Shown here: positions 18,389-46,718 of the stretch, in pieces | How the letters are laid out: every line of letters begins with the position of its first letter | Numbering within the stretch: position 1 is the stretch's first letter | Assembly: GCA_022821385.1 (NCBI GenBank) | Contig: JAJEDR010000056.1 | Coordinates: 28,038-92,037, forward strand | Source of the DNA: Rhodothermales bacterium | Lineage (GTDB): Bacteria > Bacteroidota > Rhodothermia > Rhodothermales > Bin80 | Length of the DNA stretch: 64,000 bases | Direction: 5' to 3' | Notes under the pieces: model-generated | Seen by the model: the letters and a program-made list of their open reading frames with translations, nothing else | Database searches by the model: none | Told to the model about the DNA's origin: nothing | Translations under genes and position numbers: made by a program

Positions 18389-19663
18389 ATGGAACCCCAG
18401 CCGCCGAACCTTGTCCAATTACGCTTCACACGGTATCTCATTGTGATGGCTGAATCACATCATCTCAGACCGTCCGCCCCTCTCACCGCTGCTCGTGATC
18501 GAGGGCCCTCCCGGTATTTTCACGGCCGAATACGGAGCCAGCGCAATTTCAAGGAACTGTTGCACCGTGCGACTCAGGCGGGGAATGGAACGACATTCCT
18601 AATTCAGGGACCTCCTGGTGTGGGGAAGACTGCCCTGGTTTATGAATGCAAACGTCACGCTTTAGAAGGTGGCTGGGATGTAGCCTCTGTTAACCCTCCG
18701 ACTCTTTGGGATCCAAACGAAATGCTGTACGCTCTTGGGCGAGGGAGCAGACTGAGACTGACGGGGGGGTCTGGGAAAGTTGGCGTAGATGCAGTTGTGA
18801 AAATCGAGGCGGGATTGGATTTTTCAGTAAACCAGGAAACCCGTACGGTACTGCAAGTGCTTAGGGGTGGGAAGAAGCCCCTACTCCTCGCCTTGGACGA
18901 AGCTCAAGCACTGGGCAAGCCAAATATTCCGCCATCTGATCAGGTGGGCGTTGTGAACAGTGTCCTTAACAACATCCACAATGGGGACTTGGATAGACCT
19001 GTCATTCTTTTGGCAGCGGGTTTAGGGACGACCTTGAAGTCCTTCGGGAGACTTGGAATTTCGAGGTTTGCAGCGCACTGTGTTGTGGAATTAGGGGCAT
19101 TGAGTAAGGAGGATGAGCGTGCGGTGATCCGGGATTGGATCAAAAAGGAGGGTAGAGCCAAAGGAGATCCAACAGGATGGATTGATGCGATCTCGCGGGA
19201 AACGCATGGATGGCCCCAGCATATCCAAACCTATGCGGACATCGCTGCAGAGCAGCTAAAGGCAGATGGCGGAATTATGACTCCAGAGGGGTTGCGCGTT
19301 GTACTGGAAGCGGGACGGGAATATCGTCAGGTGTATTACAAGCAACGAGTAGATGACTTTCGTGTAGATCAGCTCCGCAGTTTGGCAAGAACCATTGCGG
19401 CTGTCCCCCAGGGAGAGCCTACTGAGTATAGAGATATAGTGTCTTCTCTGGCACGGGACTATGGCGATGATGGGGCGGAAACTTTATTCAAGAGCTTGGA
19501 AGAGCAAGGGTTGCTAGCGCGGAGTGGGATGGGGTATGCTGTCCCCATTCCCTCGATGCATGCATGGCTGAGGGACGAGTATGTCCGAGAGAAGATTGAA
19601 TTCCCTCGCGACCCGCAGAAGGGACAAAGCAGTCACGAGCAGAGTTCCGGGTTGGAACATTAA
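18389..19663 (+). CDS. Orphan P-loop NTPase (AAA_16 / ORC-Cdc6-like ATPase with probable C-terminal winged helix)
   Basis: FHGRIRSQRNFKELL precedes the Walker A GPPGVGKT. The Walker B is LLLALDEAQAL. The likely true start is the ATG at 18446 (MAESHH). The gene is flanked on both sides by roughly 450-480 bp without convincing ORFs. Confidence 0.6.
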   Translation: MEPQPPNLVQLRFTRYLIVMAESHHLRPSAPLTAARDRGPSRYFHGRIRSQRNFKELLHRATQAGNGTTFLIQGPPGVGKTALVYECKRHALEGGWDVASVNPPTLWDPNEMLYALGRGSRLRLTGGSGKVGVDAVVKIEAGLDFSVNQETRTVLQVLRGGKKPLLLALDEAQALGKPNIPPSDQVGVVNSVLNNIHNGDLDRPVILLAAGLGTTLKSFGRLGISRFAAHCVVELGALSKEDERAVIRDWIKKEGRAKGDPTGWIDAISRETHGWPQHIQTYADIAAEQLKADGGIMTPEGLRVVLEAGREYRQVYYKQRVDDFRVDQLRSLARTIAAVPQGEPTEYRDIVSSLARDYGDDGAETLFKSLEEQGLLARSGMGYAVPIPSMHAWLRDEYVREKIEFPRDPQKGQSSHEQSSGLEH

Positions 19664-20116
19664 CTTCGGTGCGCCCCGACCCAACTCTTATTCGATGGTC
19701 GCGGTGGAAAGGGCTCATACAGGCGAAATACCGAATGTTTTTTGCAACGTCAAGGTGCAAAATAGAGCTTAATTATGAACCGTTATCGTACTTGACGGAC
19801 GTTACCTCCAATATTTCGGGGGAGGCCTTTATTCCTTCCAAGTGGCCGTATGGAAATTATCCGGGAACCTCGAAAATCTCGGCTACATCGCCCAAGTAAG
19901 GGTCGAAATGTTAGTTTTGGGCACAACATCAAGGACGTATACTGCCCTTGCGATCCAAGCGTTACGCCGAATACGCATTGACTATACGGAACGTTACCAC
20001 AAACCCACCTCCCGCCATGCCATTCCCTACTTCACCAATCACCGAATCTGTCTTGCCACGGATTCGATGATAGGATTAAACCAAAATTCCCGCAGTGTAC
20101 GGCTGTCGGCACCTAA

Positions 20117-20611
20117 CTACATGCCCAGACTCCCTCTCACTGCGTCCATCACATCCTCATCAATCTCTAAATAGCCCTGTTCACGGGCATAACTCTCGAC
20201 ATTCCGCTTGACCATAGGCCGGATATAGTGGGGAATTGCTTCAATGCGAGCCAGTGCCTCTGCCGTCCAGACAGGCTTTTTCGGTTCAGACTCCGCAGCC
20301 CCAATTGCGTCGTTGACCATCCCCGTGAAAGGACATTTACCACCTGTACCTGAGGGAGGTCCCTCTGGCGACTCCTCCTGGACCGATGCAAGATTTGATC
20401 GAAGGGTTTCCATGGGCTCCTCCGGTGTGGTTCGCCCGCCGATCCTTACACCCAGTGAGCGAACCATCTGGGTCTCGGCCCTGTTGGTCAACATCGCTGT
20501 CTGCACTGAACAGGTCGGACACTCATACACGATGGACATTGAGCCGTCAAATGGACCATGCGTAGACTTTAATGCCATTGGCTGGTCACAGGGAACACAC
20601 AAAAATTTCAC
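20117..20611 (-). CDS. Zn-ribbon plus PCP_red-domain protein (last gene of the bd-like operon)
   Basis: The N-terminal CVPC...CPTC ribbon is followed by a linker with a KCPFTG motif. The C-terminal VWTAEALARIEAIPHYIRPMVKRNVESYAREQGYLEIDEDVMDAV (nt 20138-20272) matches the BchB C-terminal PCP_red pattern W..eA...L..iP.f.R...r...E.yAr..G...It. The GTG start overlaps the upstream stop (GTGA at 20608-20611). Confidence 0.7.
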   Translation of the reverse strand: MKFLCVPCDQPMALKSTHGPFDGSMSIVYECPTCSVQTAMLTNRAETQMVRSLGVRIGGRTTPEEPMETLRSNLASVQEESPEGPPSGTGGKCPFTGMVNDAIGAAESEPKKPVWTAEALARIEAIPHYIRPMVKRNVESYAREQGYLEIDEDVMDAVRGSLGM

Positions 20612-21462
20612 TTTGATTGATTTTTAAGCCAGAAATGTACTCGTTGGGCTACATCCAGGATCGCATTGGCGGCCGGATGCCCCGCATGCACCTCAATGTA
20701 AGATCTGCCCGTCTCCAAAAAATCGGCAAGCGTAACATTGAACGGAATAGCGCCCAAATAGGGGACACCATGCCGCTCAGCCAGTTCCTCCACCGCCTCG
20801 GTCCCGATAAACATCTGCTCTTTACATCTACACTCCGAACAAATCATCGTACTCATGTTCTCAACCACACCGGCAATCCGCACATTCGCAACATTCAATG
20901 CCATCAAAATAGAACGGGAAACAACCGTCATCGCCGTCTGTGATGCCGTAGAAACAACAATTGCACCCGTCAGATCCGGTAACAGGTCCGCCAAATTCTG
21001 AAGCCGTTCGGCACCAGGGGGCAAATCTATCAGCAACACATCCAGATCACCCCAATCGGTGTCTGAAAGCAATTCCCGAAGTGCACTCATCTCAACCATT
21101 GAACGCCAAGTATAGGCGCCCTGCTGGGATGATGCTTCCCACACGAGCGGGGTTTCGTCCTCCGGCAAAAACATATCCATGGACATGACCGGCACACCGT
21201 ACGCGTTACGGGCAGCGATCATTGCACCATTTTTCGGTGACGGCTTATGGTCTCTTACTCCCATCATACGCGCCATGCAGGGCCCATTCAAATCTGCATC
21301 CAATACGCCCGTACGCACCCCCAACCTAGTCAGCCCATCCGCCAGACAGGCAGTCACAGTACTTTTTCCAACCCCTCCTTTTCCACTCATCACCGCGAAA
21401 ATACTCCCGATCCGCGCCAGACGCTCCTTTAGCCGATCGTGCTGCTGGGCAACTTGTCCCAA
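20608..21462 (-). CDS. Mrp/NBP35/ApbC-like P-loop ATPase (SIMIBI class; putative Fe-S cluster carrier)
   Basis: The deviant Walker A is SGKGGVGKST and DLPPG is present. A CSEC pair sits where Mrp proteins carry CxxC. Confidence 0.75.
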   Translation of the reverse strand: MGQVAQQHDRLKERLARIGSIFAVMSGKGGVGKSTVTACLADGLTRLGVRTGVLDADLNGPCMARMMGVRDHKPSPKNGAMIAARNAYGVPVMSMDMFLPEDETPLVWEASSQQGAYTWRSMVEMSALRELLSDTDWGDLDVLLIDLPPGAERLQNLADLLPDLTGAIVVSTASQTAMTVVSRSILMALNVANVRIAGVVENMSTMICSECRCKEQMFIGTEAVEELAERHGVPYLGAIPFNVTLADFLETGRSYIEVHAGHPAANAILDVAQRVHFWLKNQSK

Positions 21463-21503
21463 GACATCAGATCCTCCATCGGACGCTATATCGTGGTAGG
21501 TTT

Positions 21504-23438
21504 TCAGTTATCCGAGCCAGCTTGCGCTTGTTCCTGGATCATTTCCTCCATCAGCTTTATCCCTTCCTTTATCCCTTCCTCGGTGATTGCAAGCGTGATC
21601 AGGTTCGTCTTCGAGGCACGTGCAACCGCTTCTACACGTTCCTTGGTGCGTGTACGCATGAAGCCCTCCGGAACCCGGCTCAGCCGCGCACGGGCATTTC
21701 TTGCCCACAAAAACTCTCCATCTTGTAACAAGTCCTCTGCGGCCTTCCTGGTTGGGGCTTCACGTGAGCCATCAGCATACTCACCAACCGTCTTCAAATG
21801 TCCTCCAGGTGTGAGGTTCTGCAGTTCTTCGGCATTACCGGTCAACACCGCACGCACCATACCCAGCGTGATCGTGGGTACGCGCTGTACGCGTGCCCGT
21901 TTTTCAATCTGTGCCTTGGCCCGGCGCATCTGGTAGCCGTCAGGAACAGAACGAAGTTCTTTTAGTGCTTCCTTGGTCCATTGCAGGCGGACATCATCAA
22001 AGGTTTGTTGCTCCTGTGAACCACCCTCCAGTTTGGCCAACTGCGTGATCGCATCCTTGTCCAGCTTCTGGAATGCCTCCGCAGGGCTGCCACAAACGGC
22101 GCATCGCACGGGGTCAAAGTCACGCGCTGAATATCCACACTGACTGCAAATCCATGTTACAGAATCTCTGTTTGCGATTTCCTTGGCCGCGGTATCCTCT
22201 GCAATTATGCCCATCTTGATCATGGACGAGCGCGGCAGGATATTACCCATAGCCTGTTCAACTATCTTTCGGGTGATCACGGAATGTCCACGCTCCATGG
22301 CCCACCGATGAATTGTTGTGCGTGCGATGCCACGAGCGAAGTCGGGAGCAGTATTCAGGAGGCGTGTGGCAGGCTCCGTCCATAACATGGATTCCTCTGC
22401 GCTCACGTCTACAGGTGGCACATACCGCTTACTGGATAGCAAGATATTACATGGCGCTTGGCGGAGAAGATTCTCCGTGTTGCTCCCGATGTCCATATCC
22501 TCATCACTGTGCACCCCGATACGTCCCAGAACCAGCAGCCACGGCTCTTCACGCCTGACGTACTGCAGCATCTTCTCGAATGCCTTGCCGTCAAGCAAAG
22601 TGATCTTTAGATCTACCTCAGCTTCATCCGCAATTCGTCTGGCAATATCCAGATGTGACTGATATATCTTGGCAAGTCCGGTGTCAATAACCTCTTCGTG
22701 CAACTGCTCCTGCTCCTTGAACCTGAAGACCTTTGATGCTTTTTCCGTCAGCACGTTAACAATGCTGTTGAACATTGCATAATGCAGGTAGGGATCATAT
22801 ACCGACACCGCTTCAACCTGGCGCCCCGTTTTCTGACCAAGCTCAAGCGCAGTGCGCAGGCCCGCAAAAGACTCTGGACTGCCGTCAATTCCCACGACAA
22901 TATTGCCCTCGGGCTTTCCGTCAACGCTGATCGTTCCCGGATCAAGATTCTTGATCACCAAAGTGTCTGTGCGTACCCGACGGGTGACACGCTCACATAC
23001 ACTCCCTATGGTACTGTCCTTAACAGCCCCCAAACCCAGCGCACCCATGATAACGAGGTCATAGTCACTCTCGTCAATGTCCTGAGCAATCACCTTCCAG
23101 TTCTTGCCGTCATACATTTTCGGTTCAAACGGCACACCAGCGGCTTTACAACGCTCTTCTGCCACAACCAGGTAAGAATCACTGATGAGCTCGAGTCCCA
23201 TTGTGATCAACGTGTCGTGAATCTTGCGCTGCTTCTCCATCGCTTCCTCAATCAGGTATTCTTCTGGAAGCGTGTATTCCATTTGTTTGAAACGATAATC
23301 ATGCATACGTGCCGCGTACGCATGACTCGCTACAACCGTCGAATCAAATTGTCCAGCAAGGGATACCGCCATATCAATGGCACTGAGCGAATGCTCAGAA
23401 TTGTCAACCGGTACGAAAATCTTCTTGTACATGAGCAT
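21504..23438 (-). CDS. Multidomain protein: tandem universal stress protein (USP) domains, three PCP_red domains and a rubredoxin-like Zn ribbon
   Basis: USP-like units cover aa 3-165 and 178-336 (KKIFVPVDNSEHS and NIVVGIDGSPES). The PCP_red-like units are LWTEPATRLLNTAPDFARGIARTTIHRWAMERGHSVIT, LQWTKEALKELRSVPDGYQMRRAKAQIEKRARVQRVPTIT and FLWARNARARLSRVPEGFMRTRTKERVEAVARASKTNLIT (nt 21564-22385). The ribbon is WICSQCG..RCAVCG. Confidence 0.7.
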   Translation of the reverse strand: MLMYKKIFVPVDNSEHSLSAIDMAVSLAGQFDSTVVASHAYAARMHDYRFKQMEYTLPEEYLIEEAMEKQRKIHDTLITMGLELISDSYLVVAEERCKAAGVPFEPKMYDGKNWKVIAQDIDESDYDLVIMGALGLGAVKDSTIGSVCERVTRRVRTDTLVIKNLDPGTISVDGKPEGNIVVGIDGSPESFAGLRTALELGQKTGRQVEAVSVYDPYLHYAMFNSIVNVLTEKASKVFRFKEQEQLHEEVIDTGLAKIYQSHLDIARRIADEAEVDLKITLLDGKAFEKMLQYVRREEPWLLVLGRIGVHSDEDMDIGSNTENLLRQAPCNILLSSKRYVPPVDVSAEESMLWTEPATRLLNTAPDFARGIARTTIHRWAMERGHSVITRKIVEQAMGNILPRSSMIKMGIIAEDTAAKEIANRDSVTWICSQCGYSARDFDPVRCAVCGSPAEAFQKLDKDAITQLAKLEGGSQEQQTFDDVRLQWTKEALKELRSVPDGYQMRRAKAQIEKRARVQRVPTITLGMVRAVLTGNAEELQNLTPGGHLKTVGEYADGSREAPTRKAAEDLLQDGEFLWARNARARLSRVPEGFMRTRTKERVEAVARASKTNLITLAITEEGIKEGIKLMEEMIQEQAQAGSDN

Positions 23439-23456
23439 TAACGCGTAAACCGCGCA

Positions 23457-23786
23457 TCAATAGACATAAGGAATTCGATCACGCACATAACGAAGTCTAT
23501 CAATCACATAATCCATTTCCGGGCGGTCACTGATAGCGGCCACGTTCAATAACGCGGCGTCAAGAAAAGCTCCACACGAACCTCTCTCTTCTTCATCTGC
23601 CTTCTCTACACAGGCAATGAACCGCCTGAGTTCAAACCGTGTTTTGACCAATTGGTTACGTGTATCCGAGGAAGGATCCGCAACTGCAATGTGTCGGGAA
23701 AGTCGCCTGACCTCCAATCCGAGGATTGGAGGAACCATCTGACGAAACTGCTGCCAGGGTAAATATTGAATCTCGTTTTCAACCAT
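23457..23786 (-). CDS. Hypothetical 109-aa protein inside the operon
   Basis: The ATG at 23786 lies 2 nt after the ferredoxin stop (23779-23781). The listed ORF start at 23801 is a TTG. I saw no recognisable motif. Confidence 0.5.
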   Translation of the reverse strand: MVENEIQYLPWQQFRQMVPPILGLEVRRLSRHIAVADPSSDTRNQLVKTRFELRRFIACVEKADEEERGSCGAFLDAALLNVAAISDRPEMDYVIDRLRYVRDRIPYVY

Positions 23787-23997
23787 TGGCCGTCCGCGCA
23801 ACGGTTGAGACAGGCTCTTCTCTCATTTCGGGAATCGGCTGAATAGCATCAACCTCACAAAAGGCCAAGCACTCCATAAAATCTGTACACTCGGGCTCAA
23901 TCACGTAGATCGGATCGTCAACCCTTATAGCCTCAATTGGGCACATGTCTACACAATCACCACATGCCGTACACTCCTGCGTAATGTAGAATGGCAT
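23779..23997 (-). CDS. Small 4Fe-4S ferredoxin
   Basis: A CTACGDCVDMCP cluster motif is present, plus a second, degenerate CTDFMECLAFCEVDAI motif. Confidence 0.75.
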   Translation of the reverse strand: MPFYITQECTACGDCVDMCPIEAIRVDDPIYVIEPECTDFMECLAFCEVDAIQPIPEMREEPVSTVARTANG

Positions 23998-24000
23998 ATT

Positions 24001-25245
24001 CTAAACGAGGTGTATTGGTTTTCTGGAAAAGGCGGGCGCTGTACCAAATGCCTTGGACCGCTGCATACCACTGAGTGCGCCATTCATAACCTCAGTGGTG
24101 ATACTTGAAACGCCTTTGTTGCGAGCGTACGCTTCGACGCCTTTCCGCGTCTTGTTACGAATGAACGAAATAGGAATCCGCCCAAGACGCTCCTGGGCGG
24201 CCTGATCCCAATGCAGTACCGCCTCCGGCAAAGCTGCGCCCGTGGGCTGATAGGCGCAGCCGGGGTCTTCTGCCAAATAATCCCCCGTGGCAGCGAAGGC
24301 CCGACACCGACAACCGCCGCATAGATCTTTGAACTCACATGCACCACAGCGCCCCTTCAGGTTTGCCGTTTCCCTAAGTTCTGCAAAAACGGCGGAACTG
24401 TCCCAGATTGTCGTGAAAGACTCCTCCAGCACACTTCCAGCCACAACATCCATATAGGGACAGGGCGTAACATTTCCCTCCGGTGTAATTCTGCAGTATT
24501 CTGTTGCTGCCATGCATCCACCGCTTTCGAGCCCCCCGCGCCCCATAGCGTAGGCAATCTGCTTGAATTGGGGTGCACACTTGCTGCGTACCAACATGGG
24601 GCGATAGTCCTCCTGCAGATCGACCAGTCGCGTCAGCATGGCTTCCGTCGCCGCAGCCGAGAGATCAGTCATCCCTTGTCCCCGTCCGGTCTGCACCAGA
24701 AAATACAGATTGAACGACCATGCCCCATGATCCCGCGCAAAATCCAGAAGTGCGGAAATCTCGTCGTAGTTCTCTTCCATGACCGTTGTTTGCACGAGCA
24801 CTTCCAGCCCCTCTTCCCGACAGATTTCCAATGCGCGTACTGAGTGCTGCCAGGCATTACGTCCACCCCTGAATGCGTTGTGACGATCAGGATCAGCGGA
24901 ATCTATACTGATCCCGACTCCTTTGACGCCACACTCAACCATCTTGCGGGCAACAGCACGCGTCACAAGCACGCCGTTGGTACCCATCACGACCCACATG
25001 CCCATTCCGCTCGCGGTCTCCGCAAGATGGTAGATATCTTTCCGCAGGAGTGGTTCTCCCCCCGTCAATATCAGCATTTCAGTGCCGAGAGTCCGCATTT
25101 CACCAAGCAATGCTAGGCACTCATCGGTGGTCAGCTCCCGATCAGCGGCGCGTCCGGCAGACAAGTAGCAATGTGGGCACTGTAAATTGCATTTCTTGGT
25201 CAGATTCCACGATACGAGCGACGGTATGTACGTCCTCCTGTCCAC
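24001..25245 (-). CDS. Radical SAM/SPASM enzyme (NirJ/AhbC/AhbD/PqqE-like) with a C-terminal PCP_red domain
   Basis: The CNLQCPHC motif (nt 25168-25191) is CX3CX2C, and TGGEPLL is present. The SPASM-type Cys cluster is GRCGACEFKDLCGGCRCRAF. The C-terminal LHWDQAAQERLGRIPISFIRNKTRKGVEAYARNKGVSSITTEVMNGAL lies at nt 24073-24216. Confidence 0.8.
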   Translation of the reverse strand: MDRRTYIPSLVSWNLTKKCNLQCPHCYLSAGRAADRELTTDECLALLGEMRTLGTEMLILTGGEPLLRKDIYHLAETASGMGMWVVMGTNGVLVTRAVARKMVECGVKGVGISIDSADPDRHNAFRGGRNAWQHSVRALEICREEGLEVLVQTTVMEENYDEISALLDFARDHGAWSFNLYFLVQTGRGQGMTDLSAAATEAMLTRLVDLQEDYRPMLVRSKCAPQFKQIAYAMGRGGLESGGCMAATEYCRITPEGNVTPCPYMDVVAGSVLEESFTTIWDSSAVFAELRETANLKGRCGACEFKDLCGGCRCRAFAATGDYLAEDPGCAYQPTGAALPEAVLHWDQAAQERLGRIPISFIRNKTRKGVEAYARNKGVSSITTEVMNGALSGMQRSKAFGTAPAFSRKPIHLV

Positions 25246-25248
25246 TGC

Positions 25249-26784
25249 TTAAGCGGTTTTCCTGCGACGCGCCCGTAAATTCACCAGGGCCACAATCAAC
25301 AGCTCTGCCCCCAACACAATCAGGAACCACTTTGCCATGGGGAGCACCGCAGATTGCGTCTCCATTGGTTGCAGATACAGATGGTACCACGCCGAAATCC
25401 CACGCTTGTTGCCTCGCTCCCCGTTAAACCCGTCCCATACAGTAAAAGAAATCGGGACAAACGTCGCTTCCGACATCGTCAACTCTCCCCGGCTACGAGG
25501 ACCCTTGAACTGGACGGTCCAAACCCCATCTTCGTAGCTAGCAGATCTTTCCAGGGCGATCCCGTTATCAGCGATCCGCCCCGACCCCTGCCCCGTTAAC
25601 ACCGCAGCTGAATCCGTAGCAAGATCCGTGTACCAGATACTCATCGGAAACCTGCTGTCTCCAAACATGAAGTACGGGCGTTCCAGTCCCTCTGGCGTAC
25701 GGGACGGCAGGAGTGCTGCCACTGCATCCGACCACCCATCCATTAGCGTATCCGGCTGTGCCGGATCAAACATTGGCACCTCAATCCCCGGGTTATTCAT
25801 GCCTTCGGTTTCTGCGGTCATATCGTGCCACTGCAGCTGGATTGCGATCTCTGATTCGTTGTAAACCGCCTTAACACTTATGCCATTGACGCCGGGATAG
25901 AAAGCACGCCCAGGCTCAATTATCTGGCCTACGATCGGAAAATACGTTTCAGGTGCTGCTTCAAAAAGACTATCGCCCAACACGAGTTCACCCGACCGCC
26001 CCTGCACCGTAACCGTCGTACCATAGTCCGGGGTATCTCTCGACAGCGACCATACATAATCCACTAAAGCCCACCGATCCTCCTCGTCAATCGTTTGCTC
26101 ATACGAAGGCATCGGCGTCCCATTCAGACCAGTCATGAAGGTCCGATATATATCCTCACGTGTAGCACTGGCTCTGAATGTCCAGCGCTTGGTCATGTCT
26201 GCCGCTCGAATAGGGTATCCCCAGTCATCCACGAGTTCTGGGGCGCTCTCGCCATTTCCGCGGCCGTTCTCGCCATGACAGTCGGCACATTGATTGGCTT
26301 CAAATACCTCTCGCCCACGTGCCAAGTGGTCCGGGTCTGCTGAATATGAGGGCGCACGCGGGATCTCTACCACCGTAGGATTGCCGTACGGCCCATCAAA
26401 AGCAGACTCAAATGTCTTGAGGTAATAGGCTAGGTTGGTGATTTCCGTCTCTGACAGGATCCCTTCCCAGGCAGGCATACTCGTATACGGCATCCCGAGG
26501 CGAATACTCCGCTTGATATCTTCTGTGGTGGGAAGTTCGCCGCTCGCTGTGGAACGGAACTTATAGTTGCCCGAAGTAAAATCTCTCGGCGTGGGGCGCA
26601 GGTAGGGCGTCGCCACGGCACTAGCATCTCCCTCATAGCCATGGCAGTGCGCACACTTGATATCGTAGACTTCCTTGCCCTCAGCGCGTTGCGCCTCAGT
26701 GCCAAGATCGTTCTCCTGTTGTGCAACCGCAGGGTTAGCGATGTACACCAGCAATAAAGTCAGCAAAATTCGCATCCTCGTCAT
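25249..26784 (-). CDS. Dihaem c-type cytochrome fused to an EB_dh-like (ethylbenzene dehydrogenase gamma / type II DMSO-reductase haem-b subunit-like) domain, C-terminally membrane anchored
   Basis: A signal peptide is present. The haem motifs are CAHCH (nt 26641-26655) and CADCH. A ~230-aa beta-rich domain contains WHDMTAE...FTVWDGFNGERGNKRGISAWY. The C-terminal TM helix is WFLIVLGAELLIVALVNL. Confidence 0.7.
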   Translation of the reverse strand: MTRMRILLTLLLVYIANPAVAQQENDLGTEAQRAEGKEVYDIKCAHCHGYEGDASAVATPYLRPTPRDFTSGNYKFRSTASGELPTTEDIKRSIRLGMPYTSMPAWEGILSETEITNLAYYLKTFESAFDGPYGNPTVVEIPRAPSYSADPDHLARGREVFEANQCADCHGENGRGNGESAPELVDDWGYPIRAADMTKRWTFRASATREDIYRTFMTGLNGTPMPSYEQTIDEEDRWALVDYVWSLSRDTPDYGTTVTVQGRSGELVLGDSLFEAAPETYFPIVGQIIEPGRAFYPGVNGISVKAVYNESEIAIQLQWHDMTAETEGMNNPGIEVPMFDPAQPDTLMDGWSDAVAALLPSRTPEGLERPYFMFGDSRFPMSIWYTDLATDSAAVLTGQGSGRIADNGIALERSASYEDGVWTVQFKGPRSRGELTMSEATFVPISFTVWDGFNGERGNKRGISAWYHLYLQPMETQSAVLPMAKWFLIVLGAELLIVALVNLRARRRKTA

Positions 26785-26787
26785 CGG

Positions 26788-27621
26788 TTAATGCGGCATG
26801 CCCTGCGCCCGTGGTTCGAATCCGGTGAACTCATATAGAAATATGATCACATCCCAAATCTCTTCTTCCGTAAGAAAATCTTCCCATGCCGGCATTGCGC
26901 TTGACCATGGCGTTGATTCCGACGGTAGTCCCGGAGCTCCTTTTGCAATTCGCCAGAACAGATAGGACTCCTGGAGCATTGCGATAGTCGTTGCATCATT
27001 GAAGTTTGCCGGAAGCGGGTCATACCCATGCGCAAACATCCCGGCCCCCTCCATATTATCCCCGTGACAGTAGAAACAGTTCTCAAAGTAAATCCGCCGT
27101 CCATTAGCAACATGCTCTGCAAAGGCTGCTTCATCCGTATGCTGGAGCTCACGGATGGGGTTATTGGCGGTTGTCAGATTAATCGAGGTGCCCTGAAAGG
27201 TTATTGAGGACGGGGGTGGCGGGTGTATCGTGCGACCACTGGAAGGTGGCTGCGGCGCCTCGTTCATACTGGCAAAGATCCAGGCAGCCACTGCTCCTGG
27301 AATCACTAACATAACAATCAGCAATGCAACCCTATACTGACGGGTCACCATGAAGCGTACGATAGATTCCTTGGCCTGCTTCAGCTCTTCATTATCCGCC
27401 GACAGATACGCAACCAGCGCAATCGTGATGATCGCCATGAACAGCACGATAATTGAATTCGGCAGCGGCGGATTAATGCCGTACGAGAAAGCGGCCCACA
27501 GCGCAGCCCACCATATCCCCATCCAGGCTAGACGATTAAGCTTGACCCAGCGTGTCACCACGAACTGGATCAGAACCATCGCTGCTGCTATCGCAAGAAG
27601 CATAAAAAGATTCATGGACAA
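26788..27621 (-). CDS. Membrane-bound monohaem cytochrome c (4 N-terminal TM helices)
   Basis: The hydrophobic N-terminal half is followed by a CFYCH haem motif and a class I cytochrome c-like tail (MPAWEDFLTEEEIWDVIIFL). Confidence 0.75.
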   Translation of the reverse strand: MSMNLFMLLAIAAAMVLIQFVVTRWVKLNRLAWMGIWWAALWAAFSYGINPPLPNSIIVLFMAIITIALVAYLSADNEELKQAKESIVRFMVTRQYRVALLIVMLVIPGAVAAWIFASMNEAPQPPSSGRTIHPPPPSSITFQGTSINLTTANNPIRELQHTDEAAFAEHVANGRRIYFENCFYCHGDNMEGAGMFAHGYDPLPANFNDATTIAMLQESYLFWRIAKGAPGLPSESTPWSSAMPAWEDFLTEEEIWDVIIFLYEFTGFEPRAQGMPH

Positions 27622-27641
27622 ACAATATCAATTCAGTAAGC

Positions 27642-28433
27642 CTAAAGCGAAGCTAGATAATCTACCAGGGCCTGCAGTTCCGAAGCAGATACCTGTTCAT
27701 GAAAACCGGTGGCATCAAGCATGGCGGTCATTACCCCGGCAACAAAGCCCTCAGTTACTGTTGCATCTGGGTCCACAATAGCTTCGTAGATTTCCGCCTT
27801 GGACATGCGTCCACCCAAGCCTTGAAGCGTTGGTCCAGCAGCCGCTGTACCATCAAGGGTATGACAGGTATTACACAGGTACGCCGCGAACAGTGTTTCT
27901 GCATCCCGATTCCCCCCTACCGCCGCCGGAGCAACGTCCTGTGATGCAGGCGCTTGGCCCTGCCATTCAAGTTGCGTATCCATCGTAACCGTCGGTGTTC
28001 CGCCAAGAGATTGCAGGTAGGCAATCACGGTGAGTATCTCCTGATCTGTAAGTGCAATCGGCGGACGGGCAACGTTGGGCATTCCGGCCACATAACCTTC
28101 CAGAACGTACGCGTTCGGATCATACATGGACTCTGCCAGATAGTAAACATCACTTTGCCCCGCAACACGTTCTCCAGCTATAGCACCAATACCGGCCAGA
28201 TCCGGGAAACGCAACCCGGTTCCATGGTCGCCCATTGTGTGGCACGTCAGGCAGGTCCCTTTGCCGGCCACAATTTCCTCACCAATGGGAATCATCTCCT
28301 CTGTAGTAAGATTGGCGCCAATCTCTATATCCTCAGGCGGCTCTGTTCGCTTCTGTGGTACCCACAAACTGACGTACCAATAGAAAACGCTGACCACAAT
28401 GGTGAATCCAAATATTTTCAGGGCCTGTTTCAC
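27642..28433 (-). CDS. Membrane-anchored dihaem cytochrome c
   Basis: An N-terminal TM anchor is followed by the CLTCH and CNTCH motifs, each with a distal Met region. Confidence 0.8.
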   Translation of the reverse strand: MKQALKIFGFTIVVSVFYWYVSLWVPQKRTEPPEDIEIGANLTTEEMIPIGEEIVAGKGTCLTCHTMGDHGTGLRFPDLAGIGAIAGERVAGQSDVYYLAESMYDPNAYVLEGYVAGMPNVARPPIALTDQEILTVIAYLQSLGGTPTVTMDTQLEWQGQAPASQDVAPAAVGGNRDAETLFAAYLCNTCHTLDGTAAAGPTLQGLGGRMSKAEIYEAIVDPDATVTEGFVAGVMTAMLDATGFHEQVSASELQALVDYLASL

Positions 28434-28460
28434 TGGACTGCCTACCGGTCTGTTGGTTTA

Positions 28461-30236
28461 TTAAGAATCTATAGGTGCGGATGCTTCCGCTTTACTCCAT
28501 CGAGAACCCGATTTGGGTTCCCAATCCTTTCGACCGGAAAGTCCGGCCAGGAAGAAAACAATCGCGATCAACAGGAAGAAAACAATAACAATCGCGCTCA
28601 CAACACCCCCAGCATAACCCAGTGTGGGGGTAAACGCATCTACGGAGGTGTCGCGTACTACACCATACACATGCCAATGCTGACGCATACCAGCACGAAC
28701 ATAGCCCATGAGGCCCATCAGCCAGGTAAACGTGATCGCCAGGAAGAAAAGGGCATACTGCGATCGAGCCGAAATTTTTCCCCACACGATTTCCCCGCGG
28801 GACTTTGCATTCTTGAACAGGAAAATATCAATGACCGTCACAGATATCATCGCAAACAATACAGACATCACCTGTGGCTGACTCAGTCCAATACGCGTTT
28901 GGGCATCCACAAAGTACCCGTAAACACCCAGAAATACGACGTAGATCACCACTGCAGCAAATATGCCGAATTGAACCCAGTTCCCGGTCTTGGCCCACGA
29001 AACGGTCGCCTCCTTGTTCGCACGCCGATAGAGCAGGAAGCTGACATAGGTTGTGAGTATGAGCAGGTTAACCGCGGTATTCTTCGCGCTCATCACACCC
29101 AGAACATTCAGTATAGGATGATGTGAACCTCCCATTGCGCGGGCCTCTTCCACCGTCGCAACAAGCGAATGCGGGGTTGCCCACACGATAAAACAAAGCG
29201 TAATGATGCCCAGAAGGTATTTGATAAACCCTCGGAAGCGTTCTGCCCCCGGTATCCGGGCCATGCTTAGCCACAGATAGTAGTTGGCCGCCAGGAACAG
29301 GTTACCAATCAGTACCGCCTGCACGATAAACAACCACGAGAACGTACCTCCCATCAACGTGATTCCAAGGCTCTGGTCGTACGCGTAAATCTCAACCCCC
29401 AACCAGTAACCCGCAAACGGGAGGGGCAGCAATGCACAAATGGCCACAAAAATACCTATGTACCCCATCCAGTCGTAATGAGCCCGGGCCTCCAGTGTTT
29501 TCGCGCCCAAAAATTTGAAGGCGCCGTAAGCTGCCCCGATAGCTCCCCCAAAAGCCACATTGGCAATAATCCGGTGGATGTTGATGGGCATCCAGATGTA
29601 ATTGTTGATTGCCTCCCAGATATTGGTCAGGTTGCCCATCTCGTCAATTCCATTGGGCGTGTTCATGAACGTCAACCAGGCATTGGCAATGAACATGATC
29701 GCCGTGCCCACGATGTTGAGCATCACCCCTAGGAACAAGTGCAGGCGGGGGGAGAGTTTCCCCCAGCCGTAGTAATACGCGTAGAGGAAAAACGCTTCAA
29801 GAAAGAACAGCAGGACATACGGTAAAAAGGTCCAACTGAATATCTTGACCAGATATTGGGTAAGCGCTGGATAAAAGACGATCAGCCCGAAGGTAAGCAG
29901 CGCACCCAGGGTTGCCGTGAATGAGAACGACACCGAAAGCAACTTCGTGAAATCGTAGGCCAGTTGGTCATAGCGCCGGTCCCCCGTCTTGTAGCCGATG
30001 AACTCAATGACGAGCGCAAAAATGGGAACTGCTAACACAAACGCTGCAAACATCAAATGCAACTCGGCGACCGCCCACATAAGCACACGGCTGCTTATGA
30101 AAGGCAGCGCCCTGTACTCGGGATCGGCCTCCTGGGGGGCAGCCCAGGCTGACTCAGAACACAGAGCCACTAACACCAATACGAGGATTCCCAGAGGAAT
30201 CCTCAGCATCCACGATCTTCGATCAATTGTCAGCAT
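28461..30236 (-). CDS. Cytochrome bd subunit I (CydA)-family membrane protein, non-canonical (no CydB partner, no long Q-loop)
   Basis: Four motifs resemble canonical CydA motifs: AVAELHLMFAAF (His19 region), FFLEAFFLYAYYYGW (FFLES..FFFGW), NAWLTFMNTPNG (N.WMQ.P.G) and HRIIANVAFGGAIGAAYGAF (His186 region). GMRQHWHVYGV resembles GRQPW.VYG. I count about 13 TM segments plus a signal-like N-terminus. Confidence 0.75.
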   Translation of the reverse strand: MLTIDRRSWMLRIPLGILVLVLVALCSESAWAAPQEADPEYRALPFISSRVLMWAVAELHLMFAAFVLAVPIFALVIEFIGYKTGDRRYDQLAYDFTKLLSVSFSFTATLGALLTFGLIVFYPALTQYLVKIFSWTFLPYVLLFFLEAFFLYAYYYGWGKLSPRLHLFLGVMLNIVGTAIMFIANAWLTFMNTPNGIDEMGNLTNIWEAINNYIWMPINIHRIIANVAFGGAIGAAYGAFKFLGAKTLEARAHYDWMGYIGIFVAICALLPLPFAGYWLGVEIYAYDQSLGITLMGGTFSWLFIVQAVLIGNLFLAANYYLWLSMARIPGAERFRGFIKYLLGIITLCFIVWATPHSLVATVEEARAMGGSHHPILNVLGVMSAKNTAVNLLILTTYVSFLLYRRANKEATVSWAKTGNWVQFGIFAAVVIYVVFLGVYGYFVDAQTRIGLSQPQVMSVLFAMISVTVIDIFLFKNAKSRGEIVWGKISARSQYALFFLAITFTWLMGLMGYVRAGMRQHWHVYGVVRDTSVDAFTPTLGYAGGVVSAIVIVFFLLIAIVFFLAGLSGRKDWEPKSGSRWSKAEASAPIDS

Positions 30237-30344
30237 TACAGTTATCAGACAGACAGCGCAGCAGGTGAGTCATAGGCAAACAAACAGGAACAGGAAAATA
30301 AGCAATGATCTTCAAGTTGCGCCTCTCAAGATGATCAGATTAGG

Positions 30345-30352
30345 TATTTTTG
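30345..30352 (+). promoter_or_regulatory. Candidate Bacteroidota-type -7 promoter box (TAnnTTTG) for the DoxX gene
   Basis: TATTTTTG lies 55 nt upstream of the ATG at 30407, in the 170-bp divergent spacer between the bd-like operon and the DoxX gene. Confidence 0.25.
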
Positions 30353-30369
30353 GGCTTGCGTGGCCCAAA
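30349..30369. promoter_or_regulatory. Perfect 7-bp inverted repeat (tttgggc-N7-gcccaaa) overlapping the candidate promoter box
   Basis: Read directly from the sequence. It could be an operator or an RNA hairpin. No T-run follows it. Confidence 0.3.
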
Positions 30370-30406
30370 TTAGTTATTTTCAACCGTAAGGTAAAAAATT
30401 TTCAGT

Positions 30407-38941: not shown

Positions 38942-38955
38942 CTATGCACGACAGT

Positions 38956-46642: not shown

Positions 46643-46718
46643 AGTCGCTCACGTTAAACGACAAATAACAGTTTCATTGCAGGTTCACACACGACAACAT
46701 TAGCCACCCTGTACTGGA

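What the first reader, a model, noticed from the sequence alone, without database searches (positions are those of the whole stretch)
20117..25245. Five PCP_red (BchB C-terminal) domains on three proteins, with a NirJ/AhbD-like radical SAM enzyme, ferredoxin and Mrp-like ATPase
The ~45-aa pattern W..eA...L..iP.f.R...r...E..Ar..G...IT occurs five times: at nt 20138-20272, three times within 21564-22385, and at 24073-24216. In protochlorophyllide reductase this domain forms part of subunit B, at the tetrapyrrole substrate site. Among SPASM proteins, the radical SAM enzyme resembles by eye the haem-modifying NirJ/AhbC/AhbD group, but SPASM enzymes also crosslink peptides. An Mrp/NBP35-type ATPase and a ferredoxin would supply Fe-S clusters and electrons. 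I infer a tetrapyrrole-handling or haem-modifying module serving the adjacent cytochromes. The route to the chlorin haem d of bd oxidases is, to my knowledge, unresolved. The alternative is protein or peptide maturation of the cytochromes or of the 109-aa ORF product.
Basis: inference. Interest (0 to 1): 0.8.

Follow-up and report, generated by a model that had tools for sequence, protein, structure and literature searches.

The report
AhbD-like haem synthase with PCP_red partners
A respiratory-oxidase operon of an uncultured Rhodothermales bacterium carries what is most likely an oxygen-independent, AhbD-type haem-synthesis enzyme, fused to and flanked by copies of a small domain otherwise known from chlorophyll synthesis, whose role here is unknown.

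Summary
Pfam finds all five PCP_red domains above its threshold, on three proteins. A radical SAM/SPASM enzyme, a ferredoxin and an Mrp-type ATPase lie beside them, in one tightly packed 10-gene minus-strand operon (20117-30236). That operon also encodes a bd-like (OR-N-type) oxidase subunit and three c-type cytochromes.

The radical SAM enzyme belongs to a tight clade, 65-80% identical across about ten phyla and always fused to PCP_red. The clade is sister to an AhbD (haem b synthase), not to NirJ, AhbC or peptide maturases.

In other lineages its orthologue sits directly beside hemY (CgoX-like), hemH and, in two loci, chdC. These are the terminal genes of the coproporphyrin-dependent haem pathway. 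Every one of 45 well-flanked loci carries respiratory or haem-synthesis genes.

The most likely function is an O2-independent coproheme decarboxylase co-expressed with respiratory oxidases. Nothing supports haem d synthesis, and peptide maturation is unlikely. The 109-aa ORF is a folded four-helix bundle and is not co-conserved with the enzyme.

The PCP_red accessory proteins remain uncharacterised. One carries a conserved Cys-Pro haem-regulatory-type motif. I rate this a new variant of a known kind, of moderate interest.

The parts
28461..30236 (-). bd-like oxidase subunit I homologue (591 aa, at least 12 hydrophobic segments, no CxxCH). It is the first gene of the operon, and no cydB follows it.
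   Evidence: Pfam Cyt_bd_oxida_I 90.8 bits over residues 49-286 only. PDB alignment to CydA (9r2g, 5doq) covers the N-terminal helices only, with His/Glu/His positions aligned. This fits the OR-N family of bioRxiv 10.1101/2021.01.16.426971. Hydropathy.
27642..28433 (-). Membrane-anchored dihaem cytochrome c (263 aa; CxxCH at residues 61 and 187).
   Evidence: Pfam Cytochrom_C 65.1 bits; motifs and N-terminal TM.
26788..27621 (-). Monohaem cytochrome c with an N-terminal membrane domain (277 aa; CxxCH at residue 182).
   Evidence: Pfam Cytochrome_CBB3 41.1 bits.
25249..26784 (-). Dihaem cytochrome c fused to an EB_dh (haem b-binding, DMSO-reductase type II gamma-like) domain, with a C-terminal TM (511 aa).
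   Evidence: Pfam Cytochrom_C 85.2 bits and EB_dh 42.7 bits. NCBIfam DMSO_red_II_gam 57.6 bits, sub-threshold.
24001..25245 (-). Radical SAM / SPASM / PCP_red fusion (414 aa), an AhbD-type enzyme. CX3CX2C lies at residues 19-26 (nt 25168-25191). There is no N-terminal RRE domain.
24058..24216 (-). PCP_red domain at the C-terminus of the radical SAM enzyme (residues 344-396).
   Evidence: Pfam 45.8 bits. PDB hit to the 63-aa PCP_red NMR structure 2kru. All 120 listed homologues carry PF08369.
23779..23997 (-). Small ferredoxin (72 aa, 7 Cys; first motif CxxCxxCxxxC).
   Evidence: Pfam Fer4 families; NCBIfam FdxA_fam 43.5 bits, below the cutoff of 65; Cys positions.
23457..23786 (-). 109-aa cytoplasmic four-helix-bundle protein of unknown function. 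It overlaps the ferredoxin gene by 8 nt.
   Evidence: 24 homologues, none named and none with a Pfam domain. Conserved along its whole length with 2 conserved Cys. AF2 pLDDT 89.8, four helices. No significant PDB fold match.
21504..23438 (-). Usp-Usp-PCP_red-rubredoxin-like-PCP_red-PCP_red protein (644 aa). Both Usp domains carry the G-x2-G-x9-G-S nucleotide-binding motif.
   Evidence: Pfam Usp 137.2 bits, PCP_red 76.5 bits (3 stretches), RUBY_RBDX 21.6 bits. Motifs. 5906 homologues, named only 'universal stress protein'.
22233..22388 (-). PCP_red copy 1 of the 644-aa protein (residues 351-402).
21831..21986 (-). PCP_red copy 2 of the 644-aa protein (residues 485-536).
21558..21713 (-). PCP_red copy 3 of the 644-aa protein (residues 576-627).
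20608..21462 (-). Mrp/ApbC/NUBPL-type P-loop ATPase (284 aa), a putative Fe-S cluster carrier.
   Evidence: Pfam PF10609 222.8 bits. NCBIfam MrpORP 198.6 and ApbC 161.9 bits, both below equivalog cutoffs. GKGGVGKS and CSEC motifs.
20117..20611 (-). 164-aa protein: an N-terminal CxxC...CxxC zinc-ribbon-like domain, a linker and a C-terminal PCP_red domain (nt 20120-20275). It overlaps the Mrp gene by 4 nt.
   Evidence: Pfam PCP_red 55.8 bits. PDB hits to the BchB C-terminus (2xdq, 8vqi, 2ynm, 2kru). Orthologue alignment.
20321..20338 (-). K-C-P-F-T-G motif (residues 92-97) in the 164-aa protein, a Cys-Pro 'haem regulatory motif'-type sequence.
   Evidence: [KR]-C-P-F-[TSP]-G is conserved in 20 of 22 aligned orthologues from Rhodothermales, Latescibacterota, Myxococcota and Marinimicrobia, and absent in the two Chloroflexi. 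Reading it as a haem-binding motif is inference from general knowledge of CP motifs.

Best explanation
The 414-aa protein is an AhbD-type radical SAM haem synthase. It most likely converts Fe-coproporphyrin III (coproheme) to haem b without oxygen, by oxidatively decarboxylating two propionate side chains to vinyl groups. It would be the anaerobic or micro-oxic counterpart of ChdC/HemQ in a coproporphyrin-dependent pathway.

Its gene is co-transcribed with a cytochrome-c-dependent bd-like (OR-N-type) oxidase. Haem supply and the haem-rich oxidase would then be made together when oxygen is scarce. This parallels the known linkage of hemN with cbb3 oxidase genes in proteobacteria, which I cite from memory.

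For the other proteins I infer these roles. The ferredoxin supplies or accepts electrons. The Mrp-type ATPase loads the enzyme's three [4Fe-4S] clusters. The PCP_red domains act as tetrapyrrole lids or docking modules, as the homologous C-terminus of BchB does over protochlorophyllide. There is one on the enzyme, three on a nucleotide-binding Usp protein and one on a zinc-ribbon protein with a Cys-Pro motif. Together they could assemble a cytoplasmic complex that holds, senses or passes on coproheme or haem.

Shown here: domain content, clade membership, synteny, haem-gene adjacency in orthologues and motif conservation. Inferred: the substrate and product, and every role assigned to Fdx, Mrp, Usp and PCP_red.
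For: - All five PCP_red domains, the radical SAM/SPASM core, the ferredoxin and Mrp are confirmed.
- NCBIfam ranks the AhbD-type models first: NirJ2 345 bits and AhbD 300, ahead of NirJ 207, AhbC 186 and PqqE 159. The score profile is nearly the same as that of a genuine AhbD encoded in an ahbC-ahbD-ahbAB cluster on a Paenibacillus plasmid (440/324/250/199/194).
- In an NJ tree the family is monophyletic (100%). It is sister to that AhbD in 92% of 200 bootstraps, apart from NirJ, AhbC/NirJ1, TIGR04053 and MftC.
- Orthologues 65-70% identical to the window protein lie next to a HemY-type oxidase in 16-18 of 80 loci (TIGR00562, 299 bits against a cutoff of 97.85).
- Orthologues lie next to ferrochelatase in 6-7 loci (PF00762, 1.2e-84; TIGR00109, 210 against 124.6).
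- Orthologues lie next to ChdC in 2 loci (PF06778, 1.4e-38; order chdC-hemH-hemY).
- The adjacent HemY is CgoX-like. It scores 304 bits to B. subtilis CgoX against 248 to M. xanthus PgoX. It has the CgoX markers F227 and R364 and lacks the PgoX marker R95 (criteria from PMC10740692).
- AhbD is already known in coproporphyrin-pathway organisms that lack the other Ahb enzymes (PMC13564367).
- All 45 loci with at least 8 kb on both sides contain cydA-like, COX1, ActC, HemY or HemH.
- The operon genes are separated by -8 to 41 nt.
- All module proteins lack TM segments and signal peptides, so they are cytoplasmic, where haem is made.
- The conserved [KR]CPF motif in the 164-aa protein is shown.
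Against: - The curated equivalog cutoffs for AhbD and NirJ2 (500 bits) are not reached, and identity to the reference AhbD is only about 37%.
- A published precedent shows that an AhbD homologue of similar distance with an extra domain was repurposed for a non-haem substrate: Gms, the GMGT lipid synthase (PMC11214058).
- No haem-synthesis gene lies in this 64-kb window or within 10 kb of the enzyme in any of the 26 well-flanked Rhodothermales loci. I could not check whether this lineage makes coproheme at all.
- Where chdC is adjacent, the enzyme is redundant rather than required.
- The ferrochelatase next to it resembles human-type enzymes more than Firmicute CpfC, so the pathway type is not settled in Myxococcota.
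- The accessory PCP_red proteins track the bd-like oxidase (all 35 cydA-like loci have them) and are missing near the enzyme in Acidobacteriota. They may therefore serve the oxidase rather than catalysis.
- PCP_red has no conserved His, Cys or Met that could ligate haem.
Confidence: 0.55

Rival explanations
1. The enzyme is a haem-modifying radical SAM enzyme. It makes a specialised haem (a side-chain-altered b-type or chlorin-type haem) needed by the bd-like OR-N oxidase or by neighbouring haem-copper oxidases. The PCP_red proteins deliver that cofactor.
For: The enzyme lies in the same operon as the bd-like oxidase in 35 of 45 loci, and the PCP_red accessory genes are present in all 35. The family is a distinct long-branch clade with an extra tetrapyrrole-enzyme domain, below the AhbD cutoffs. 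AhbD relatives are known to change substrate (NirJ; Gms). In two loci a normal ChdC is already present, so a second, different reaction is conceivable. The haem content of OR-N enzymes is not reported in the literature I could search.
Against: The same orthologue (65-70% identical) occurs without any cydA-like gene in Acidobacteriota, Multivoradales and Chloroflexi, next to chdC-hemH-hemY, alternative complex III or cox genes. It is sister to AhbD, not NirJ. Classical bd-oxidase organisms do not need such a module (general knowledge). Only the N-terminal helices of the cydA-like protein align with CydA, and nothing here shows that it binds haem d.
Confidence: 0.2
2. The enzyme acts one step earlier, on metal-free coproporphyrinogen III. 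It would be a HemN/CgdH-like role in a protoporphyrin-dependent pathway, performing the same propionate-to-vinyl chemistry before HemY and ferrochelatase.
For: The gene order hemH-hemY-rSAM in Myxococcota fits either pathway. Myxococcus HemY is a characterised PgoX (PMC10740692). The ferrochelatase next to the enzyme is closest to protoporphyrin-type (human) enzymes in the PDB. Bacteroidota generally use the protoporphyrin route (general knowledge).
Against: The enzyme is AhbD-like, not HemN-like. The adjacent HemY proteins score higher to CgoX, carry R364 (and F227 in L026) and lack the PgoX-specific R95. chdC, which only makes sense with coproheme, is adjacent in two loci.
Confidence: 0.08
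3. The enzyme is a peptide or protein maturase. A SPASM enzyme would crosslink or modify the 109-aa ORF product or one of the cytochromes.
For: SPASM enzymes often modify peptides. PqqE, MftC and sactipeptide maturases appear among the weaker hits. A small conserved ORF with two conserved Cys lies two genes downstream.
Against: There is no RRE/PqqD-like domain; the radical SAM domain starts at residue 14. The 109-aa protein is predicted with high confidence to be a four-helix bundle, conserved from its first residue on, unlike a leader-core precursor. It is absent from Myxococcota, Chloroflexi and Acidobacteriota loci whose enzyme is equally conserved. The tree places the family with AhbD and away from MftC. 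The cytochromes are periplasmic or membrane proteins, while the enzyme is cytoplasmic.
Confidence: 0.05
4. The enzyme acts on a non-tetrapyrrole respiratory cofactor or lipid (for example a quinone or membrane-lipid modification), as in the Gms precedent.
For: Gms is an AhbD homologue of about 36% identity with an added domain that acts on lipids. The third-best PDB sequence hit is the lipid enzyme Tes (7tol, 6.6e-12). The respiratory context would also suit a quinone enzyme.
Against: The added domain here comes from tetrapyrrole enzymes (BchB/BchZ). The recurrent direct neighbours are hemY, hemH and chdC, not lipid or quinone genes. The COG4001-type N-terminal extension of Gms is absent.
Confidence: 0.05

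Closest known systems
AhbD (haem b synthase; radical SAM/SPASM coproheme decarboxylase of the siroheme-dependent pathway, e.g. Methanosarcina barkeri, Desulfovibrio; NCBIfam TIGR04545 and TIGR04055 'NirJ2')
   Same: It has the same radical SAM CX3CX2C motif plus a SPASM core with enough conserved Cys for two auxiliary clusters. AhbD-type models give the best HMM scores. It is sister to an Ahb-cluster AhbD in the tree (92%). Its orthologues have haem-synthesis neighbours.
   Different: It is only about 37% identical and falls below the curated cutoffs. It carries a C-terminal PCP_red domain that canonical AhbD (about 335 aa) lacks. No ahbA, ahbB or ahbC genes are nearby. It sits in aerobic or micro-oxic respiratory operons of diderm phyla and comes with dedicated PCP_red, Usp, Mrp and ferredoxin partners.
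C-terminal domain of BchB/ChlB (and BchZ) of dark-operative protochlorophyllide reductase (Pfam PF08369)
   Same: All five copies match the Pfam model above threshold. They also match BchB C-termini in solved structures (2xdq, 2ynm, 8vqi) and the isolated domain 2kru.
   Different: There is no nitrogenase-like Oxidored_nitro domain, no BchL/BchN and no photosynthesis genes. The domain is fused to a radical SAM enzyme, to tandem Usp domains with a rubredoxin-like knuckle, and to a zinc ribbon. It occurs in tandem arrays of 2-6 copies in 1648 protein clusters with no described function.
ChdC/HemQ (oxygen/peroxide-dependent coproheme decarboxylase of the coproporphyrin-dependent pathway)
   Same: It is proposed to catalyse the same net reaction. 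chdC is encoded next to the orthologous radical SAM gene in two loci, together with hemH and hemY.
   Different: The fold and chemistry are unrelated (Chlor_dismutase family against radical SAM). The relation proposed is that of aerobic and anaerobic isoenzymes, like HemF and HemN.
hemN linked to cbb3 oxidase (ccoNOQP/fixNOQP) genes in proteobacteria (from memory, not checked here)
   Same: An oxygen-independent radical SAM haem-synthesis gene is placed beside, and presumably co-regulated with, a terminal oxidase used at low oxygen.
   Different: The enzyme family (HemN against AhbD-like), the substrate (coproporphyrinogen against coproheme) and the oxidase family (haem-copper cbb3 against bd-like OR-N) all differ. 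Here the gene is inside the oxidase operon.
OR-N family of cytochrome bd-like oxidases (Murali, Gennis and Hemp, bioRxiv 10.1101/2021.01.16.426971)
   Same: The operon's first gene shares only the N-terminal helices with CydA, lacks a partner CydB and the quinol-binding loop region, has many TM segments, and is followed by c-type cytochromes as likely electron donors.
   Different: That paper's main text does not mention a radical SAM enzyme or PCP_red proteins in these operons (0 occurrences). I did not assign the subfamily (N1 or N2).
NirJ (haem d1 biosynthesis radical SAM enzyme)
   Same: It belongs to the same superfamily branch, is a tetrapyrrole propionate-processing radical SAM/SPASM enzyme, and shares 33-35% identity.
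   Different: It scores 207 bits against a cutoff of 515. It forms a separate clade with AhbC (100% bootstrap). No nirS, nirF or nirDLGH context is present.

Membership tests
AhbD-type haem b synthase (TIGR04545 / TIGR04055) | Radical SAM CX3CX2C cluster motif | tested here: met
   CNLQCPHC at residues 19-26, invariant in 13 homologues.
AhbD-type haem b synthase (TIGR04545 / TIGR04055) | SPASM domain with Cys for two auxiliary [4Fe-4S] clusters | tested here: met
   Pfam SPASM 37.8 bits. C244, C262, C300, C303, C309, C312, C314 and C330 are invariant. Cluster content itself cannot be tested here.
AhbD-type haem b synthase (TIGR04545 / TIGR04055) | Score above NCBIfam equivalog cutoff (500 bits) | tested here: not met
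   345 bits (NirJ2) and 300 bits (AhbD). A Paenibacillus AhbD encoded in an ahbC-ahbD-ahbAB cluster also fails, at 440 and 324 bits.
AhbD-type haem b synthase (TIGR04545 / TIGR04055) | Phylogenetic grouping with AhbD rather than NirJ, AhbC or peptide maturases | tested here: met
   The NJ tree of 21 sequences places the family with the Paenibacillus AhbD in 92% of 200 bootstraps. There is only one AhbD reference and no ML tree.
AhbD-type haem b synthase (TIGR04545 / TIGR04055) | Encoded with haem-biosynthesis genes | tested here: inconclusive
   Not met in this window or in the Rhodothermales loci. Met for orthologues in Acidobacteriota, Myxococcota, 'Delta', Multivoradales and Opitutales MAGs: hemY in 16-18 loci, hemH in 6-7 and chdC in 2.
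AhbD-type haem b synthase (TIGR04545 / TIGR04055) | Converts coproheme to haem b with SAM | not testable with these tools
   This needs an enzyme assay or genetic complementation.
PCP_red domain (Pfam PF08369) | Match to the Pfam HMM above the gathering score (32.5 bits) | tested here: met
   55.8, 76.5 (three stretches) and 45.8 bits. BchB chains are matched in the PDB.
DPOR/COR subunit B/Z (BchB, ChlB, BchZ) | Nitrogenase-like Oxidored_nitro core preceding PCP_red, with BchL/BchN partners | tested here: not met
   None of the three proteins has such a domain. NCBIfam BchB models match only their last ~55 residues (41-58 bits against cutoffs of at least 490).
RiPP / peptide-modifying radical SAM-SPASM maturases (PqqE, MftC, sactipeptide synthases) | RRE (PqqD-like) peptide-recognition domain or separate chaperone, plus an adjacent precursor peptide | tested here: not met
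   There is no domain N-terminal to the radical SAM core. The only small ORF is a conserved four-helix bundle, absent from many orthologous loci. PqqE scores 159 bits (cutoff 381) and MftC 148 (cutoff 265).
NirJ (haem d1 synthesis) | Equivalog score and nirS/nirF/nirDLGH neighbourhood | tested here: not met
   207 bits against 515. It forms a separate clade. No nir genes occur in the window.
OR-N bd-like oxidase | CydA N-terminal helices conserved, quinol-binding region and CydB absent, alternative electron donors encoded alongside | tested here: met
   The Pfam match covers only profile positions 2-240 of 418. The alignment to CydA structures stops at about residue 284. The next three genes are c-type cytochromes and there is no cydB. 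Subfamily placement was not tested.
Mrp/ApbC/NBP35 Fe-S carrier | Deviant Walker A GKGGxGK[ST] and a CxxC cluster-bridging motif | tested here: met
   GKGGVGKS at residue 27 and CSEC at residue 208. PF10609 scores 222.8 bits. The equivalog cutoffs (MrpORP 450, ApbC 348) are not reached.

The most novel reading that the evidence does not exclude
The PCP_red domain is a general cytoplasmic tetrapyrrole-handling module. The five copies here would form a dedicated relay: synthase-fused lid, then a nucleotide-gated Usp-(PCP_red)3 scaffold, then a zinc-ribbon/Cys-Pro haem-binding carrier. This relay would take newly made haem (or a new, radical-SAM-modified haem) from an AhbD-like enzyme and commit it to the bd-like OR-N and haem-copper oxidases. 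That would define a first haem-trafficking system for respiratory complexes in diderm bacteria, and a function for more than 1600 uncharacterised PCP_red protein clusters.
Probability: 0.2. Interest if true: 0.8.

Novelty: new variant of a known kind. Interest (0 to 1): 0.55.

Why it matters
If the main reading holds, three things follow.

- A large set of uncultured aerobic or micro-oxic diderm bacteria has an oxygen-independent last step of haem synthesis that has not been described for them. At least 442 species representatives carry it, in Rhodothermales, Calditrichia, Latescibacterota, Myxococcota, Chloroflexi, Acidobacteriota and other groups. The step is wired directly into their respiratory-oxidase operons.
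- This extends the known 'AhbD in coproporphyrin-pathway organisms' observation from Gram-positives to many diderm phyla.
- It provides a natural system, with candidate ferredoxin and Fe-S-carrier partners, for the open question of which redox partners AhbD-type enzymes use.

Separately, it points to a function outside chlorophyll synthesis for the BchB C-terminal domain. It also flags a widespread, unannotated family of Usp-(PCP_red)n proteins, currently labelled 'universal stress protein'. And it gives a handle on the cofactor supply of the biochemically uncharacterised OR-N bd-like oxidases.

Tried and rejected
- **Literature.** Searches for PCP_red, PF08369 and 'PCP reductase family' found no relevant papers. 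A search for bd-like oxidase plus radical SAM found none. The OR-N paper does not mention radical SAM. A search for the role of the BchB C-terminal domain was uninformative.
- **Promoter and terminator scan** of 19300-31000: counts were no higher than in shuffles, so it says nothing about operon limits.
- **PDB sequence search.** There is no AhbD or NirJ structure. The best hit is PqqE, so no structure-based substrate inference was possible.
- **Ferrochelatase typing** (CpfC or PpfC) through the PDB was inconclusive; only human-type hits appeared.
- **HemY typing for the Myxococcota locus L057.** The markers were mixed: R364 present, R95 absent, F227 unclear. The Acidobacteriota locus was clearer.
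- **AlphaFold and Foldseek of the 109-aa protein.** The model is a confident four-helix bundle, but no match had E < 0.3.
- **The TP_methylase gene at 48910-49584** looked like a possible tetrapyrrole link. It is RsmI, a 16S rRNA methyltransferase (271 bits against 168).
- **Three further conserved unknown proteins in related loci** (264, 198 and 173 aa) gave no Pfam or NCBIfam hits.
- **Not possible.** I did not run a second structure prediction, because the tool returns no inter-domain contacts and so could not show where PCP_red docks.
- **Haem d route.** I rejected this as the working hypothesis because the enzyme is equally conserved in loci without any cydA-like gene.

Full report
**What is there.**
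The region lies in a single minus-strand gene string running from 30236 down to 20117. The ten genes are separated by -8 to 41 nt. In order they encode:
- a 591-aa bd-like oxidase subunit I homologue
- three c-type cytochromes, with five CxxCH motifs in all; one is fused to an EB_dh haem-b domain
- a 414-aa radical SAM/SPASM/PCP_red protein
- a 72-aa ferredoxin
- a 109-aa protein
- a 644-aa Usp-Usp-PCP_red-rubredoxin-like-PCP_red-PCP_red protein
- a 284-aa Mrp/NUBPL ATPase
- a 164-aa zinc-ribbon/PCP_red protein

The string is bounded by a divergently transcribed DoxX-type membrane protein gene and a convergent AAA_16 ATPase gene. The closest genomes are Rhodothermales MAGs, at 95-97% protein identity.

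**Check of the observation.**
All five PCP_red copies pass Pfam's gathering score (55.8 bits; 76.5 bits for three stretches; 45.8 bits; cutoff 32.5). They also match the C-termini of BchB chains and an isolated PCP_red NMR structure in the PDB. The 'NirJ/AhbD-like' impression is borne out. The best NCBIfam models are NirJ2 (345 bits) and AhbD (300), then TIGR04053 (255), NirJ (207), AhbC (186) and PqqE (159), all below their curated cutoffs.

**The radical SAM enzyme is a distinct, very conserved, AhbD-related clade.**
The 120 best database homologues all have the same three-domain architecture. They remain 65-70% identical to the window protein in Chloroflexi, Calditrichia, Krumholzibacteriota, Acidobacteriota, Myxococcota and other phyla. 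A scan of one genome per species found relatives in 442 species.

For references I used annotated plasmid genes:
- NirJ from Roseibium and Paracoccus
- TIGR04053 proteins from Thermus, haloarchaea and Bacillus
- MftC
- a Paenibacillus plasmid cluster that NCBIfam identifies as ahbC (NirJ1, 596 bits), ahbD (NirJ2 440, AhbD 324) and a fused ahbA/B

In an NJ tree the family is monophyletic (100%) and sister to the Paenibacillus AhbD in 92% of 200 bootstraps. NirJ and AhbC form a separate, fully supported group. Identity to the AhbD reference is only 37.5%, so this is a sister clade rather than an orthologue in the strict sense.

**Genomic context across phyla.**
I compared 80 loci with up to 10 kb on each side. 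The 1 + 3 + 1 arrangement of PCP_red domains on three proteins, together with Mrp, is kept in Rhodothermales, Calditrichia, Latescibacterota, Marinimicrobia, Myxococcota and Chloroflexi.

Counts among the 45 loci with at least 8 kb on both sides:

| Gene | Loci (of 45) |
|---|---|
| bd-like cydA | 35 |
| Usp-(PCP_red)3 | 39 |
| Mrp | 38 |
| 164-aa protein | 38 |
| haem-copper oxidase subunit I (COX1) | 25 |
| HemY-type oxidase | 11 |
| alternative complex III ActC | 6 |

All 45 have at least one respiratory or haem-synthesis gene. Three reverse look-ups starting from Usp-(PCP_red)3 homologues returned the same cluster.

That criterion is not met. The tie to the bd-like gene in particular is not universal, however. 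Chloroflexi place the module inside a COX2-COX1-COX3-COX4 cluster. Acidobacteriota and Multivoradales have only the enzyme, next to haem-synthesis, alternative complex III and cox genes.

**The decisive clue: haem-synthesis neighbours.**
In 16-18 loci the enzyme's gene is directly beside a HemY-family flavoprotein (TIGR00562, 299 bits against a cutoff of 97.85). In 6-7 loci a ferrochelatase is also there (PF00762, 1.2e-84; TIGR00109, 210 against 124.6). An example is the order hemH-hemY-rSAM in Myxococcota, with the PCP_red/Mrp/cytochrome/cydA-like genes on the other strand. In two loci, L064 and L042, a Chlor_dismutase-family ChdC/HemQ gene precedes hemH-hemY.

ChdC, CpfC and CgoX are the three terminal enzymes of the coproporphyrin-dependent pathway. 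By the published markers (PMC10740692), the Acidobacteriota HemY is CgoX-like. It scores 304 bits to B. subtilis CgoX against 248 to M. xanthus PgoX, has F227 and R364, and has no R95. The Myxococcota HemY leans the same way but less clearly. The ferrochelatase could not be typed. A recent review states that AhbD occurs in coproporphyrin-pathway organisms that lack the rest of the Ahb pathway (PMC13564367). That supplies the precedent.

**Most likely mechanism.**
[quoted passage not shown] It would be the radical SAM counterpart of ChdC, as HemN is to HemF. It is encoded inside or beside respiratory-oxidase operons, so haem supply would match oxidase synthesis at low oxygen.

The remaining roles are inference:
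- The ferredoxin would serve reductive SAM cleavage or removal of the substrate-radical electron.
- The Mrp-type ATPase (Walker A and CxxC present) would deliver the three [4Fe-4S] clusters.
- The PCP_red domains would act as tetrapyrrole lids or docking modules, by analogy with the BchB C-terminus over protochlorophyllide. That analogy rests on my own knowledge of the DPOR structures and was not tested here.

Two sequence observations add substance:
- Both Usp domains keep the G-x2-G-x9-G-S nucleotide-binding motif.
- The 164-aa protein has a [KR]-C-P-F-[TSP]-G motif conserved in 20 of 22 orthologues across four phyla. This is the form of Cys-Pro haem-regulatory motifs.

All six module proteins lack TM segments, so they should be cytoplasmic.

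**Caveats.**
- The curated AhbD cutoffs are not met.
- A published AhbD homologue of similar distance that gained an extra domain, Gms, acts on lipids rather than haem (PMC11214058).
- No haem-synthesis gene lies within this window or near the enzyme in any of the 26 well-flanked Rhodothermales loci. I could not examine the rest of those genomes.
- The PCP_red accessory genes track the bd-like oxidase (35 of 35) and are missing near the enzyme in Acidobacteriota. They may therefore serve oxidase assembly rather than catalysis.
- PCP_red itself has no conserved His, Cys or Met, so it is not an obvious axial ligand donor.

**Rivals.**
It is weakened by the enzyme's equal conservation in loci without any cydA-like gene and by its AhbD rather than NirJ affinity.
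- A HemN-like role on coproporphyrinogen is possible (about 0.08). It is disfavoured by the CgoX-like HemY and the adjacent chdC.
- Peptide maturation is unlikely (about 0.05). There is no RRE domain. The 109-aa ORF is a confidently predicted four-helix bundle (pLDDT 89.8), conserved from its first residue. It has only 24 detectable homologues and is absent from many orthologous loci. Its fold gave no significant PDB match.
- A non-tetrapyrrole substrate is the remaining possibility (about 0.05).

**PCP_red beyond this operon.**
A profile of the five copies, searched against 1.84 billion representative proteins, found 1648 clusters at E <= 1e-3. The best 150 all have two to six copies. Of the 120 of these that I scanned with Pfam, 37 also have Usp domains, 21 a rubredoxin-like knuckle, 3-4 a radical SAM/SPASM core and one a haem-oxygenase-like domain. 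Public names are only 'universal stress protein' or 'radical SAM protein'. I found no paper on this domain outside DPOR.

**Novelty and verdict.**
The enzyme class (AhbD) and its occurrence in coproporphyrin-pathway organisms are known. New, as far as the searchable literature shows, are three things:
- the PCP_red-fused subfamily
- its conserved partnership with multi-PCP_red/Usp, zinc-ribbon/PCP_red, Mrp and ferredoxin proteins
- its placement inside OR-N-type and haem-copper oxidase gene clusters across many diderm phyla

I rate it a new variant of a known kind, with interest 0.55.

Noticed in passing
window 12365-17908 (+): This 1847-aa ORF is made of many ~100-aa tandem repeats ('...ITVTA.V.G...Y...Q.I.LT..') followed by a C-terminal region that looks like an outer-membrane beta-barrel. 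It gave no Pfam family at E <= 1e-4.
   Followed up: partly
window ~37500-46700 (-): A block of raised G+C (57-59% against ~52%) encodes HMG-CoA reductase, a UbiA-family prenyltransferase, a 940-aa PEP-utilising/PPDK_N protein, DUF3419, an AMP-binding enzyme and a 457-aa protein with no family. It may be an isoprenoid or lipid-synthesis island.
   Followed up: partly
window 30407-31579 (+): A 390-aa membrane protein with two DoxX domains is transcribed divergently from the oxidase operon. The same gene is conserved at this position in 17 Rhodothermales loci (cluster 12).
   Followed up: no
L058:11293-12087, L044:12168-12764, L044:8097-8618 (also L094, L095): Many related loci (16, 10 and 19 respectively) carry three further conserved cytoplasmic proteins among or beside the module genes. 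They are about 264, 198 and 173 aa, and all are absent from the window. None has a Pfam or NCBIfam match.
   Followed up: partly
L045:8199-9074, L057:12551-13426 and other Myxococcota loci: In Myxococcota a GNAT acetyltransferase gene is inserted between the Mrp and Usp-(PCP_red)3 genes.
   Followed up: no
L085:8615-9775 (Rhodocaloribacter litoris CP076718.1); L096:7349-7852, 12021-12383, 13330-13713: Small mobile or selfish genes have inserted between module genes without removing them. They are an IS605 OrfB/TnpB gene, 23S_rRNA_IVP genes and a PDDEXK_3 gene. R. litoris is a cultured, fully sequenced carrier and so is suitable for experiments.
   Followed up: no
L087 (Thermus thermophilus plasmid NZ_LR027520.1) and L093 (Halomontanus rarus plasmid): The related TIGR04053 radical SAM family lies next to a cd1-type nitrite reductase gene in Thermus. 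In a haloarchaeon it lies next to genes annotated as rSAM-partnered candidate RiPPs. This one NCBIfam family may therefore cover different functions.
   Followed up: no
L083:2374-2616 and 12978-13352 (Chloroflexi MAG JACQYF010000102.1): In the Chloroflexi locus the module is embedded in a cox operon. That operon also holds a small AsnC_trans_reg/NapD-like gene, a DUF420 gene and, downstream, a Nitro_FeMo-Co (NifX/NafY-like) domain protein.
   Followed up: no
window 48910-49584 (+): This TP_methylase-family gene could be mistaken for a tetrapyrrole methylase. It is RsmI, the 16S rRNA C1402 2'-O-methyltransferase (TIGR00096, 271 bits against a cutoff of 168).
   Followed up: yes
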